IMG/VR virus record: IMGVR_UViG_3300029073_000029
Source: a virus
Taxonomy: Duplodnaviria; Heunggongvirae; Uroviricota; Caudoviricetes
Length of the DNA stretch: 6,136 nucleotides
Reading direction: 5' to 3' (one strand)
Shown: piece after piece, positions 23 through 4,669 of the stretch
How positions within the stretch are numbered: the first letter of the stretch is position 1
Layout of the letters: every line of letters starts with the position of its first letter
Translations under genes and position numbers: made by a program
Notes under the pieces: model-generated
What the model was told of the DNA's origin: nothing
The model's database searches: none
Seen by the model: only the letters and a program-made list of their open reading frames with translations

Positions 23-62
23 GATGTCCCTCTGGGATGCGCTCCGGATGAATATGATGATC

Positions 63-1082
63 TCATATCAGGAACTTGTTCGCACCTTCCCTAGCAGAAC
101 GGACATCGACTGGTGTAAGGAAGAATTTATTCTTCCATTTTTGATTTTTAAATCTTGAGGATAGCCTTGCTATTAAAGATGACTTTCCATTTCCTGAACC
201 GCCTATAAGTGATAGGACTCTACTTTGAGAGCTATTTCCTCTAACATTCTCAAGATAATCCCAAACTTCTTTCTGTATATATTCGCGACCAACAAAGTCT
301 TTCGGCTGACATGGCTTATAATCCATAAAATCGTCAGCAAGAATTATTTCACTGACAATTTCCCTTTCGTAATTTTCAGATAATTTTGAAGACGAAACAG
401 TTTGTTCCGGTTCAGATAATATATAAAAATCAGTTACTTCCAACCCTTCAAAAAGCCCTTGCTCCTTTATAATATCACTTATGCGACTGACACTTGGAAT
501 TTTACTATTTTTATTTATAGCGAACGGCACCACTCTTATAGGGCTACCATTTTCAACTTCTTGCAAAAGCCAAGTCATTTCTATTTCAGGATGAACTAAA
601 AGTGTTGCACTAGTATATTTTGCCGGAATGTCATCTGTTGGAATATCCTCAACCTTACCTGTTGCAAGTATAGATATAAGAATCTCTTTTTTATCAAAAA
701 AAGAATAATCTATACGCTCATCAAGTCTATAATCCTCAAGCGTTGACTGAGCATCTTTACCCAAATCAGAAATTGAAAAAAGTGCAATTTTTTTAACTCT
801 CAACCTAAATGCTTGAGAAAATGCCAAATCAACCACAGATGAATCAACTTTTTGCTGCATGAATTTACATTCTACATACAGCTTTTCATTTGATGGTGTA
901 TGAGTAGCCTGAATATCAATTTCCATGCCAGATTTTCTGACTTCCATACCATCAATTCTATACGATTGCCGGCGGAGTATATCAGCGCAAAAATTCTCGA
1001 AAAACTTCCCTCTCGAGGTATTGGAATAATTACTAGGTACACAAACTATCAAATCTTTATTCAGTGGTAACGGCCTGGCCAT
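63..1082 (-). CDS. AT-rich cargo protein, 339 aa: N-terminal Mrr-like PD-(D/E)xK nuclease motif plus C-terminal start of an AAA_16/STAND-type P-loop NTPase that appears truncated
   Basis: Complete ORF with AAGGAG about 8 nt upstream of the ATG at 1082. Seen: GKFFENFCADILRRQSY...GMEIDIQA...KLYVECKF (hD...ExK pattern typical of Mrr_cat restriction-endonuclease domains) and FVGREYIQ...RVLSLIGGSGNGKSSLIARL (Walker A, at about 203..180) followed by only about 38 residues before TGA at 65..63. Clearly AT-rich by eye compared with flanking DNA. Position corresponds to gop in P4 (inference). Confidence 0.8.
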   Translation of the reverse strand: MARPLPLNKDLIVCVPSNYSNTSRGKFFENFCADILRRQSYRIDGMEVRKSGMEIDIQATHTPSNEKLYVECKFMQQKVDSSVVDLAFSQAFRLRVKKIALFSISDLGKDAQSTLEDYRLDERIDYSFFDKKEILISILATGKVEDIPTDDIPAKYTSATLLVHPEIEMTWLLQEVENGSPIRVVPFAINKNSKIPSVSRISDIIKEQGLFEGLEVTDFYILSEPEQTVSSSKLSENYEREIVSEIILADDFMDYKPCQPKDFVGREYIQKEVWDYLENVRGNSSQSRVLSLIGGSGNGKSSLIARLSSRFKNQKWKNKFFLTPVDVRSAREGANKFLI

Positions 1083-3263: not shown

Positions 3264-3297
3264 TTTCCGGCTCCTCGTCACTTCAGGTTAAGAAAAT

Positions 3298-3353
3298 TGT
3301 GACGTACACCGGACAGCAACACGACGCATTGCAGATGTGCCAGCCCTGACACA
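3298..3353 (-). promoter_or_regulatory. Psid-like late promoter with two TGT-N12-ACA activator sites
   Basis: TGT(3298..3300)-N12-ACA(3313..3315) and TGT(3336..3338)-N12-ACA(3351..3353). The distal site is centred about 55 bp and the proximal about 17 bp upstream of a transcription start assumed near 3290. Ogr/Delta-activated P2/P4 late promoters have this element centred near -55. Confidence 0.5.
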
Positions 3354-3408
3354 GGAGACTCATCCTCACACCGGCAAGCCAGGAAAAGGTCGCAGGAAAA
3401 ACCGGCTT

Positions 3409-3577
3409 ACTGTTTGTTTTTTTATATTTTACTGTTCACCTCTGTTCACCTTAATAAAAAAGATAAGTAATACAGTAAGTTAAAGGATGAACAATCGCAG
3501 TAATGACTGTTCACCGTCTGTTCACCACTGTTCACCCGCTCATGGACTTTTTGTGCTGTTTACTACTGTTTGTTTTT
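3409..3577. other. ori: Putative replication origin with alpha-type iterons
   Basis: Five perfect direct TGTTCACC octamers at 3433..3440, 3443..3450, 3508..3515, 3519..3526 and 3529..3536, spaced about 10-11 bp, separated by an AT-rich spacer and bracketed by a 13-bp direct repeat ACTGTTTGTTTTT (3409..3421 and 3565..3577). I recall TGTTCACC as the type I iteron bound by P4 alpha at ori and crr. Confidence 0.6.
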
Positions 3578-3640
3578 ATTAATTCGCCGGGAATGAATAA
3601 GAAGAAACGATTTGTATTTCACTATAAAAATTACAAATTG

Positions 3641-3670
3641 CTTTAAGTGGCTTTAAATGACTTTAAGTGG
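3641..3670. repeat. Three tandem 10-bp repeats CTTTAA(G/A)TG(G/A)
   Basis: ctttaagtgg / ctttaaatga / ctttaagtgg, head to tail with helical-turn periodicity, about 150 bp upstream of vis. Function not determined; candidate regulator-binding array. Confidence 0.6.
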
Positions 3671-3695
3671 AAATGAACAAAAAACACACAACCAT

Positions 3696-3713
3696 TGTAA
3701 GGCTGCCGGAACA
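3696..3713 (+). promoter_or_regulatory. Candidate activator site of a PLL-like late promoter driving vis
   Basis: TGT(3696..3698)-N12-ACA(3711..3713), centred about 110 bp upstream of the vis ATG, which would place a transcription start near 3755..3760. Confidence 0.4.
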
Positions 3714-3815
3714 AATCCCCCCTGTTGCGTCTGCTGAAAATATTCACAAAATAAAGCGCTACCCGAAGCCGGACGGACTTATCCGGTGCTGTATGGACAT
3801 TAACGAGGTAGCCCG

Positions 3816-4082
3816 ATGCAAGCTGTTTTTTCTTCCCCGTCTCCCGCCCCTGTGACGCCACTGATGCCGCTGCCGGACATCACACAGGAGCGTTTTTTAC
3901 GTCTTCCGGAAGTGATGCACCTGTGCGGCCTGTCACGCTCGACCATCTATGAACTCATCCGTAAGGGGGAATTTCCGCCGCAGGTGAGTCTTGGCGGTAA
4001 AAATGTGGCCTGGCTGCACTCTGAAGTCACCGCATGGATGGCCGGCCGCATTGCCGGACGCAAACGGGGGTACGACGCATGA
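3816..4082 (+). CDS. vis: AlpA/Vis-family DNA-binding regulator (excisionase-like helix-turn-helix), 88 aa
   Basis: [51 protein letters not shown] matches the AlpA-family pattern (LP.V....G.SRST.Y.....G.FP....LG.....W...EV..W). GAGG lies 7 nt upstream of the ATG at 3816. An alternative in-frame ATG at 3864 would give 72 aa. Confidence 0.85.
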
Positions 4083-4117
4083 TGATGCCTGTTCTGCAAA
4101 AAGTCCCTTTTTCTGGC

Positions 4118-4147
4118 TTGCCTTTTTCCGGCATTTGCGGATATAGT
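4118..4147 (+). promoter_or_regulatory. Candidate sigma70 promoter (PLE-like) upstream of the immunity-like leader
   Basis: TTGCCT (4118..4123), 18-nt spacer, TATAGT (4142..4147). Motif match only. Confidence 0.35.
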
Positions 4148-4154
4148 TTTTCCG

Positions 4155-4471
4155 CTGCCGCAAAATCGGCAGCCGGGCGTGAGAACCCGTGTAACTCGAA
4201 GGCGACATATGACGCGCCATGCGTCTTTTTTTGTGTCGCAATCAACGCCACAGAGCGCCAGATTATGGTGTGGCGTGTGGTTTGCCGTGCAGGTATGATC
4301 CTGTTCGCAATCGCATGTTATGCCACTGAGTCAATGGTAGCTCAGGCGGGGCAGCCTCCGGGCTGGCCGGTATTCTTCGAGGCCGGTATTCTCACCCCCG
4401 TCTGGGCTATCGCCATCGAGCGTGAGAACTCCGGCGATAGCAGTTATTTGCTACTCGAAGGAGGCTGCCTT
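4155..4471 (+). ncRNA. Untranslated leader with repeated boxes and complementary segments; candidate cI-type immunity RNA region
   Basis: GCGTGAGAAC occurs twice (4177..4186, 4420..4429), each followed by ACTCGAAGG (4194..4202, 4453..4461; the second abuts the RBS of the 65-aa ORF). Between them, CTTCGAGG (4375..4382) and TTCTCAC (4389..4395) are complementary to those boxes, within a 12-nt direct repeat GGCCGGTATTCT (4365..4376, 4381..4392). No convincing ORF with RBS. Boundaries are approximate. Confidence 0.35.
4211..4232 (+). terminator. Short GC hairpin followed by T7; candidate intrinsic terminator within the leader
   Basis: GACGC (4211..4215), 5-nt loop, GCGTC (4221..4225), then TTTTTTT (4226..4232). 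Confidence 0.4.
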
Positions 4472-4669
4472 ATGGCTACAACCCTTACCCCCTCACACCC
4501 TGAATTTGTCTTTGTGTTTGCGGCTGTCCGTCGCGCAGACCGTCATCCCCGTATCTGCATGCTTCGCACCGTCGCCGGTGATGAACGCAGCGCCCGCCGT
4601 TCCCTTGTCCGTGACTATGTGCTCTCCCTTGCTGCCCGTCTGCCGGTGGTGGAGGTGTCCCGTGCGTAA
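4472..4669 (+). CDS. Small protein, 65 aa, first ORF after the leader (position comparable to P4 kil)
   Basis: GAAGGAGG ends about 7 nt before the ATG at 4472. It is the 3' part of the 211-aa track ORF, whose upstream portion lacks an RBS and overlaps vis and the leader. Confidence 0.55.

What the first reader, a model, noticed from the sequence alone, without database searches (positions are those of the whole stretch)
3641..3670. Three head-to-tail 10-bp repeats upstream of vis
Seen: ctttaagtgg / ctttaaatga / ctttaagtgg, exactly one helical turn apart, about 35 bp upstream of the third TGT-N12-ACA site. The features above do not explain it. Inference: a phased protein-binding array, plausibly for the Vis/AlpA-like regulator (autoregulation) or a DNA-bending protein.
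Basis: inference. Interest (0 to 1): 0.4.

Follow-up and report, generated by a model that had tools for sequence, protein, structure and literature searches.

The report
P4 satellite's helper-Cox docking repeats
The three 10-bp repeats are real, but they are the already annotated "ori type 2 repeats" of satellite phage P4. They read as three near-perfect binding boxes for the Cox protein of the helper phage P2, so they most likely let the satellite sense its helper rather than serve its own Vis regulator.

Summary
**Observation.** It is confirmed. CTTTAAGTGG/CTTTAAATGA/CTTTAAGTGG lies at 3641-3670. A comparable triple appeared in 0 of 1000 shuffles of the window.

**Identity.** The window is a P4-type satellite prophage, 98% identical to phage P4. 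The array is 30/30 identical to the three features annotated "ori type 2 repeat" in the P4 GenBank record.

**What it is.** On the minus strand the repeats read TTAAAGTCA/TTAAAGCCA/TTAAAGCAA. That fits the published P2 Cox box TTAAA(G/C)NC(A/C), spaced 10 bp. The boxes face away from the late promoter PLL, about -122 to -94 from its predicted start. A matrix built only from P2's own Cox sites picks this array as the best phased cluster in the window.

**Vis reading.** It is not supported. The identical Vis protein occurs in elements whose array has been replaced. No IHF consensus is present.

**Extension, possibly new.** At the same position, other P4-like satellites carry phased arrays of different sequence.
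- In at least 247 E. coli genomes the array matches phage WPhi's Cox repeats.
- In 38 of 61 Enterobacterales loci, the best cluster of phage 186 Apl operators (TTGCCA) falls at this position.

The array therefore looks like a swappable helper-sensing cassette.

**Verdict.** The finding as given is already known. The extension is inferred from sequence only.

The parts
3641..3670 (.). Three head-to-tail 10-bp repeats. They equal the three 'ori type 2 repeat' features of phage P4 (X51522/NC_001609 9176-9205).
   Evidence: Searches show the repeats. Searches give the annotation. One search shows 30/30 identity to P4. One search gives 0/1000 shuffles.
3658..3666 (-). Cox box nearest the promoter, TTAAAGTCA. 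It matches the consensus TTAAA(G/C)NC(A/C) at 9 of 9 positions.
   Evidence: The consensus comes from PMC3936717 and PMC5009727.
3648..3656 (-). Cox box TTAAAGCCA, 9 of 9 positions.
3638..3646 (-). Cox box TTAAAGCAA, 8 of 9 positions.
3608..3637 (-). Weak, in-phase Cox-box-like positions (4-5 of 9). This is the predicted zone into which Cox spreads, away from PLL. Inference only.
   Evidence: The literature reports at least 70 nt protected, spreading, and boxes facing away from the promoter.
3696..3713 (+). TGT-N12-ACA, the Delta/Ogr-type activator site of the late promoter PLL.
   Evidence: In the P2 record, activator-site centres lie 55-58 bp upstream of late transcription starts.
3723..3760 (+). 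Predicted PLL core. TGTTGC is at 3723-3728 and GAAAATATTCACAAAATA at 3736-3753. The predicted start is near 3760. The core is kept with 0-3 mismatches in 61 P4-like loci.
   Evidence: There is no sigma-70 consensus promoter here, as expected for an activator-dependent promoter. The start position is an inference.
3816..4082 (+). vis (AlpA-family excisionase and regulator), the first gene downstream of PLL. It is 99% identical to P4 Vis.
3433..3536 (.). Six type 1 iterons (TGTTCACC) of the P4 replication origin, next to the array but distinct from it.
   Evidence: They are conserved in elements whose type 2 array is replaced.

Best explanation
The array is the docking site for the Cox protein of a P2-type helper phage, placed upstream of the satellite's late promoter PLL.

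**Proposed sequence of events**
1. A P2-type helper infects the cell or is derepressed. Cox, the first product of its early operon, binds cooperatively, one protomer per helical turn.
2. It binds the three strong boxes at 3638-3666 on the minus strand, about -122 to -94 from the predicted PLL start.
3. It then spreads leftward over weaker in-phase positions, bending or wrapping the DNA.
4. This activates PLL. The satellite then transcribes vis and the downstream operon, including the primase gene alpha. It can therefore excise, replicate from the adjacent origin and exploit the helper.

**Shown in the literature for P4**
- Cox binds upstream of PLL and activates it.
- The box consensus, the 10-11 bp spacing, a footprint of at least 70 nt, and boxes that face away from the promoter.

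**Shown here**
- The window's array is base-for-base the P4 array.
- It is the only strong phased cluster of Cox boxes in the window.

**Inferred**
- These three repeats are the nucleating boxes of the published footprint.
- The direction of spreading.
- The promoter start position.
For: - **Identity to P4.** The array is 30/30 identical to P4's annotated repeats, within a region 98% identical to P4.
- **Consensus match.** The minus-strand reading is TTAAAGTCA/TTAAAGCCA/TTAAAGCAA. Matches to the published consensus are 9/9, 9/9 and 8/9, at 10-bp spacing.
- **Helper-derived matrix.** A matrix built only from six boxes in P2's own Pe-Pc region and annotated attP Cox site was scanned on both strands. 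It places its best phased triple exactly on the array in the 6136-bp window. It does the same in the 11.6-kb P4 genome (score 25.4).
- **Permuted-word null, array zone only.** The P2 Cox model gives P = 9/3000. The WPhi model gives 215/3000 and the 186 Apl model 380/3000.
- **Reverse direction.** A matrix from the three satellite boxes ranks the P2 Pc promoter (25954) first in P2 1-27000.
- **Gapped alignment.** The array's best local alignment in P2 is 25951-25984, the Pc/Cox operator. Only 4 of 300 shuffled queries score as high.
- **Orientation.** The boxes point away from PLL, as the literature describes for P4.
- **Comparative support.**
  - Elements that are 97% identical overall are only 56% identical in 3625-3680.
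  - There they carry repeats matching phage WPhi's Cox repeats.
  - In 38 of 61 other satellite loci, the locus-wide best cluster of 186 Apl operators falls at the same position.
  - WPhi Cox is reported not to activate P4, which fits class specificity.
Against: - **Primary paper not read.** The footprint paper (Saha et al. 1989) and the figure showing the P4 boxes were not available. The exact overlap of the footprint with 3638-3666 is therefore inferred, not read.
- **Number of boxes.** The literature speaks of at least six boxes. Only three are strong here, and the neighbours match 4-5 of 9 positions.
- **Single boxes are at chance frequency.** Single Cox-box matches occur at chance frequency across P4. 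The signal rests on the clustering.
- **GenBank label.** The record names the repeats as origin elements, and a role in replication is not excluded.
- **No binding test.** No binding or expression experiment is possible with these tools.
Confidence: 0.85

Rival explanations
1. The array is an operator for the satellite's own Vis (AlpA-family) protein. It would mediate negative autoregulation of PLL or stimulation of Psid.
For: - Vis is a recombination directionality factor. Such proteins bind direct repeats one helical turn apart, and three adjacent sites can suffice.
- Vis is reported to regulate transcription away from att.
- The array lies between Psid and PLL.
Against: - Identical Vis (WP_001149160.1) goes with both the P4-type array and the replaced array.
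- The repeat word occurs only once in P4's int-attP spacer, at 2 mismatches and not in phase. Vis is reported to bind that spacer.
- A matrix from the phased GGA words of that spacer does not hit the array. The identification of those words as Vis sites is my own guess.
- The array matches the helper's Cox operator instead.
- The Vis footprint paper (Polo et al. 1996) could not be read.
Confidence: 0.07
2. The repeats are an auxiliary element of the replication origin, as the GenBank label 'ori type 2 repeat' implies. They might bind the alpha protein or a host factor, or help unwinding. This could hold in addition to Cox binding.
For: - The repeats lie inside the annotated rep_origin (P4 9086-9809).
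- They sit about 105 bp from the last type 1 iteron.
Against: - The type 1 iterons and their spacing stay identical in the WPhi-type class and recognisable in the most divergent E. coli elements, whereas the type 2 array is replaced outright. The sampled satellites of other genera likewise carry different arrays at this position.
- The sequence bears no resemblance to TGTTCACC.
- From my own memory of Tocchetti et al. 1999, J Virol 73:7308 (not checked with tools): the minimal ori1 is a 123-bp segment holding the six type 1 iterons and a 35-bp AT-rich stretch. That would exclude 3641-3670.
Confidence: 0.08
3. The array is a site for a host nucleoid protein such as IHF or Fis, or intrinsically bent DNA that shapes the promoter region.
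For: The region is AT-rich and phased at 10 bp, which can give intrinsic curvature.
Against: - No IHF consensus (WATCAANNNNTTR, up to 1 mismatch) lies between 2465 and 4847.
- A host-factor site should be conserved among satellites of the same host. Instead E. coli elements carry at least two unrelated array sequences.
Confidence: 0.03

Closest known systems
Phage P4 'ori type 2 repeats' and the P2 Cox binding site upstream of P4 PLL (Saha, Haggard-Ljungquist and Nordstrom 1989, as cited in PMC3936717)
   Same: The sequence is identical at 30/30 bases. The position is the same between the type 1 iterons and the TGT-N12-ACA site of PLL. The orientation is the same.
   Different: Nothing differs in the array itself. 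The surrounding element is a chromosomal P4-like prophage with different cargo at the gop/beta position.
P2 Cox operator at the P2 Pc promoter, and the annotated Cox site at P2 attP
   Same: Same box word and 9-10 bp phasing. A 34-nt gapped alignment links the array to P2 25951-25984.
   Different: In P2 the boxes overlap Pc and repress it, and at attP they serve excision. In the satellite they lie about 95-120 bp upstream of a promoter that Cox activates. The satellite's three boxes fit the consensus better than P2's own.
Phage 186 Apl operators (7 at pR-pL, 5 at attP)
   Same: Same architecture of direct repeats 10-11 bp apart, bound cooperatively, with three adjacent sites as the minimum. 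Many P4-like satellites carry this word at the position of the window's array.
   Different: The word is different (TTGCCA/TGGCAA). The window's array does not match it (P = 380/3000).
Derepression of staphylococcal pathogenicity islands (SaPIs) by helper phage proteins
   Same: It works alike at the level of logic: a satellite stays silent until a specific helper-encoded protein appears.
   Different: SaPIs use protein-protein inactivation of the Stl repressor. Here a helper DNA-binding protein is recruited to mimic operators in the satellite's DNA. This comparison rests on general knowledge and was not tested here.

Membership tests
P4 ori type 2 repeats (GenBank X51522 / NC_001609) | Same sequence at the homologous position of a P4-type element | tested here: met
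   The annotated features at P4 9176-9205 map exactly to window 3641-3670. Identity is 30/30 within a region 98% identical to P4.
P2 Cox operator (Cox-box array) | Several direct repeats matching TTAAA(G/C)NC(A/C) | tested here: met
   Three boxes match at 9/9, 9/9 and 8/9. The P2-derived matrix ranks them first in the window. The permuted-word null gives P = 9/3000.
P2 Cox operator (Cox-box array) | 10-11 bp between box starts, all in one orientation | tested here: met
   Box starts are 10 bp apart, all on the minus strand, facing away from PLL.
P2 Cox operator (Cox-box array) | At least six boxes and a footprint of about 70 nt | tested here: inconclusive
   Only three strong boxes were found. 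In-phase neighbours match 4-5 of 9 positions. The figure with the published P4 boxes was not available.
P2 Cox operator (Cox-box array) | Bound by Cox protein, with Cox-dependent activation of PLL | not testable with these tools
   Reported for P4 in the literature.
Vis (AlpA-family) operator | Site sequence co-varies with the protein and resembles its sites at att | tested here: not met
   The same Vis accession goes with two unrelated arrays. There is no phased copy of the word in P4's int-attP spacer.
P4 alpha-protein iterons (type 1, TGTTCACC) | The octamer TGTTCACC, conserved together with the origin | tested here: not met
   The word is different. The type 1 iterons are conserved where the array is replaced.
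IHF binding site | WATCAANNNNTTR | tested here: not met
   No match with up to 1 mismatch between 2465 and 4847.

The most novel reading that the evidence does not exclude
The position upstream of PLL is a swappable helper-sensing cassette. P4-like satellites across Enterobacterales keep a phased array of 3-5 direct repeats there. The repeat word copies the operator of whichever recombination directionality factor their helper uses.

**Three classes matched so far**
- P2 Cox boxes in P4 and in this window.
- WPhi-type Cox repeats in a large E. coli class.
- 186 Apl-type TTGCCA boxes in many Citrobacter, Enterobacter, Klebsiella, Kluyvera, Raoultella and Pantoea-group elements.

If so, the array sequence would predict which helpers can wake a given satellite. 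The cassette would be one of very few fast-evolving patches in otherwise near-identical elements. I found no description of this in the searchable literature. That library lacks most of the older P2/P4 papers.
Probability: 0.6. Interest if true: 0.65.

Novelty: already known. Interest (0 to 1): 0.3.

Why it matters
**The finding as given.** It matters little. It rediscovers an annotated feature of a classic model system and corrects the proposed binding protein.

**The extension.**
- Satellites appear to recognise their helpers by carrying decoy copies of the helper's own Cox/Apl operators.
- They appear to exchange this roughly 50-bp cassette while the rest of the element stays about 97% identical.
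- This would give a sequence-based way to predict helper range. P4-like satellites occur in roughly a fifth of complete E. coli genomes (1067 of 5426).
- It would also give a concrete example of arms-race evolution at a regulatory DNA site rather than in a protein.

Tried and rejected
- **Literature retrieval.**
  - The primary papers could not be fetched: Saha 1989, Eriksson 2000, Tocchetti 1999, Lindqvist 1993, Christie and Dokland 2012.
  - Several keyword searches returned mostly irrelevant papers.
  - Searches failed on term length.
- **Pattern scans of viral contigs.** I scanned for two-unit array words, TTTGCCA-N3-4-TTTGCCA and TAGTACTNTTTAGYAC. The aim was to find helper phages with matching operators.
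- **Sampling P2-like switch regions through Ogr**. All 80 returned loci had identical Ogr. Most ended just after ogr, at the prophage boundary, so they held no switch region.
- **Guess at the Vis operator.**
  - I noticed phased GGA words in P4's int-attP spacer and a similar-looking stretch at window 3764-3798.
  - A matrix from the spacer words did not score the PLL region or the array above background.
  - I therefore make no claim about where Vis binds near PLL.
- **Column-permuted matrices as a locus-wide control**. Some permutations landed in the array zone often, up to 33 of 61 loci, because the zone is repetitive and cyclic shifts keep the word. I replaced this with a stricter zone-only null that also permutes base labels.
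- **Scripts.** The first two scripts failed because a locus file had not yet been copied.

Full report
**1.

The window reads ctttaagtgg / ctttaaatga / ctttaagtgg at 3641-3670. Tandem Repeats Finder gives period 10 and 3.1 copies at 3640-3670. The repeat finder extends the register to 3635-3670.

I scored three consecutive 10-mers that differ pairwise by at most 2 bases.
- None occurs in 1000 dinucleotide-preserving shuffles of the window.
- One occurs in 3000 shuffles of the AT-rich intergenic region alone.

The vis start is at 3816.

**2. What the locus is**

The intergenic region 3280-3830 is 98% identical to phage P4.
- The minus-strand genes are psu, delta and sid.
- The plus-strand genes are vis, an Ash/Icd-like ORF, the epsilon-region ORFs and the start of the primase alpha.

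Window coordinate w corresponds to P4 coordinate 12846 - w.

The P4 records annotate three "ori type 2 repeat" features at 9176-9205, inside a feature "origin of DNA replication". These map exactly to window 3641-3670. The array is 30/30 identical to P4. The neighbouring six type 1 repeats (TGTTCACC) lie at 3433-3536. The finding therefore rediscovers an annotated element of a model phage.

**3. What the repeats are**

Two held papers on the P2 Cox protein give the relevant facts (PMC3936717; PMC5009727).
- Cox activates the P4 late promoter PLL.
- Its binding site lies upstream of PLL.
- It protects at least 70 nt.
- It recognises directional boxes TTAAA(G/C)NC(A/C) spaced 10-11 bp apart.

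On the minus strand the window's repeats read as follows.

| Window position | Sequence | Match to consensus |
|---|---|---|
| 3658-3666 | TTAAAGTCA | 9/9 |
| 3648-3656 | TTAAAGCCA | 9/9 |
| 3638-3646 | TTAAAGCAA | 8/9 |

The boxes are 10 bp apart and point away from PLL.

In the P2 record, the centres of late-promoter activator sites lie 55-58 bp upstream of the annotated starts. That places the PLL start near 3760 and the three boxes at about -122 to -94.

**4. Tests independent of the published consensus**

I built a position matrix from six boxes taken only from phage P2: three at the Pc promoter and three in the annotated attP Cox site. I scanned both strands for phased triples spaced 9-11 bp.

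| Test | Result |
|---|---|
| P2 matrix on the 6136-bp window | Best cluster is the array (score 25.4) |
| P2 matrix on the 11.6-kb P4 genome | Best cluster is the array (score 25.4) |
| Permuted-word null, array zone, P2 Cox model | 9/3000 reach the observed score |
| Same null, WPhi model | 215/3000 |
| Same null, 186 Apl model | 380/3000 |
| Matrix from the three satellite boxes on P2 1-27000 | Pc promoter (25954) ranks first |
| Best gapped alignment of the array in P2 | 25951-25984, the Pc/Cox operator; 4/300 shuffles |

Only three boxes are strong. The in-phase neighbours match 4-5 of 9 positions. This fits nucleation on three sites followed by spreading, as described for this protein class. 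I could not compare with the published box map.

**5.

Vis:
- The window's Vis is identical to WP_001149160.1.
- The same accession is annotated in E. coli elements whose array is replaced by CTTCAGAACC/CTTTGAGACC/CTTCCAGTCC.
- Over psu to alpha, the window and the O157:H7 element are 97.2% identical. In 3625-3680 they are only 56% identical, the lowest of any 50-column block. An autoregulatory site should not be replaced while its protein stays unchanged.
- The repeat word is not repeated in P4's int-attP spacer, where Vis is reported to bind.

IHF: no consensus with up to one mismatch lies between 2465 and 4847.

Promoter: no sigma-70 consensus promoter is present in the region, as expected for activator-dependent promoters.

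**6. Where the evidence led: the array varies by class and matches helper operators**

I aligned eight E. coli elements and inspected 80 loci found with a Vis alignment across Enterobacterales. The PLL core is almost invariant: TGTTGC, then GAAAATATTCACAAAATA. About 40-125 bp upstream of it, nearly every element has 3-5 direct repeats at 10-11 bp. The words differ from class to class.

Phage 186 (Apl) class:
- The 186 record annotates seven Apl sites at pR-pL and five at attP. They read TGGCAA/TTGCCA at 10-11 bp spacing.
- This is the word in many satellite arrays. Examples are GTTTGCCA... in L017, L032, L036 and L053, and TGGCAAAC in L055 and L087.
- A matrix from the 12 annotated Apl sites puts its locus-wide best phased triple inside the 86-bp zone in 38 of 61 satellite loci. 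The zone holds 1.7% of positions.
- Permuted matrices gave a mean of 6.5 loci and a maximum of 33.
- In-zone scores often reach 22-28, above any out-of-zone best (21.5).
- Zone-only nulls give 0-9 of 3000 for five such loci.

Phage WPhi class:
- WPhi's C-cox spacer holds the direct repeat CCTAGAA(A/G)GGAC(A/T)GG.
- AAGGG-type boxes lie just left of its integrase arm repeats. That is the position of the annotated Cox site in P2.
- A matrix from the O157-class boxes ranks that attP-side site first and the C-cox spacer third in the whole 32.7-kb WPhi genome.
- The best gapped alignment of the O157 array in WPhi is 22650-22675, with 0 of 300 shuffles as good.
- The WPhi matrix fits the O157 array zone at 7/3000, whereas the P2 matrix gives 1128/3000.

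Supporting facts:
- WPhi Cox is reported not to bind P2 Cox boxes and not to activate P4.
- Cox/Apl proteins are known to fall into several groups. 186-type regulatory regions are reported in Enterobacter and Klebsiella prophages.

Prevalence in 5426 complete E. coli genomes:
- The P4-type array is in 439 genomes.
- The WPhi-type array is in at least 247.
- P4-like intergenic regions occur in 1067 genomes in all.

**7. Mechanism and confidence**

Best explanation (0.85): the array nucleates cooperative binding of a P2-type helper's Cox upstream of PLL. This switches on the satellite's left operon. Binding and activation are literature facts for P4. The assignment of these three repeats as the strong boxes is inferred from sequence.

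Rivals:

| Rival | Confidence |
|---|---|
| Auxiliary origin element, possibly in addition to Cox binding | 0.08 |
| Vis operator | 0.07 |
| Host nucleoid-protein site | 0.03 |

**8. Novelty**

The feature and its likely binder are already known. The cassette-like replacement of the array with words that match WPhi Cox and 186 Apl operators did not turn up in the searchable literature. It rests on sequence statistics only. I give it 0.6 probability, and moderate-to-high interest if true.

Noticed in passing
window 3625-3680 compared with L216 6225-6280 (E. coli O157:H7 TB21-1): A patch of about 50 bp is only 56% identical between two satellites that are 97.2% identical overall. The array is replaced by CTTCAGAACC/CTTTGAGACC/CTTCCAGTCC, which matches phage WPhi's Cox repeats.
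   Followed up: yes
L014-L091 (80 P4-like loci from other Enterobacterales), 40-125 bp upstream of the PLL core: In 38 of 61 loci the best cluster of phage 186 Apl operators (TTGCCA/TGGCAA) falls at the place of the window's array, in either orientation. Other words remain unassigned: AGTACT in Pantoea, CACTGCA in L078/L085, GCTTATTTGT in L077. A few loci show no obvious array (L030, L052, L054, L060, L062).
   Followed up: partly
window 4436-4485: This is the second most divergent block between the window and the O157-type element: 66% identity against 97% overall. It lies in the region homologous to P4's cI/immunity segment, inside an Ash-family ORF (4034-4669). It may be a different immunity allele.
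   Followed up: no
window 63-1082, minus strand: A 339-aa ORF sits where P4 carries gop and beta. It has an Mrr-type restriction endonuclease domain, then a P-loop that matches the start of STAND/AAA NTPase models below their cut-offs. It ends 62 bp from the window edge, so it may be truncated or disrupted. It is a likely anti-phage cargo gene.
   Followed up: partly
window 3723-3760: TGTTGC followed by GAAAATATTCACAAAATA is kept with 0-3 mismatches in 61 P4-like loci from many genera. This is far better conserved than its surroundings. It is probably the PLL core and perhaps a regulator site.
   Followed up: partly
L004 (phage P4) 3970-4075; window 31-60: P4's int-attP spacer holds two runs of GGA-centred words 10-11 bp apart, four and then three. 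These are candidates for the two reported Vis boxes. A matrix from them scores highest in the window at 31-60, at the far left edge, and not near PLL.
   Followed up: partly
L008 (E. coli E1624) and L059, array zone: The array CTTATAACTC/CTTCCAGTGC/CTTTAAATGG mixes P2-type and WPhi-type words. In L008 it scores well with both matrices (2/3000 and 6/3000). It may be an intermediate or a dual-specificity cassette.
   Followed up: partly
window 4190-4207: A fourth TGT-N12-ACA match lies downstream of vis, outside the two known late-promoter regions. Four matches in the window are seen in 9 of 200 shuffles.
   Followed up: no
L013 (contig labelled uncultured Clostridiales) and L055 (labelled Vagococcus): P4-like loci typical of Enterobacteriaceae appear in assemblies labelled as Firmicutes. 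These are probably binning or contamination artefacts.
   Followed up: no
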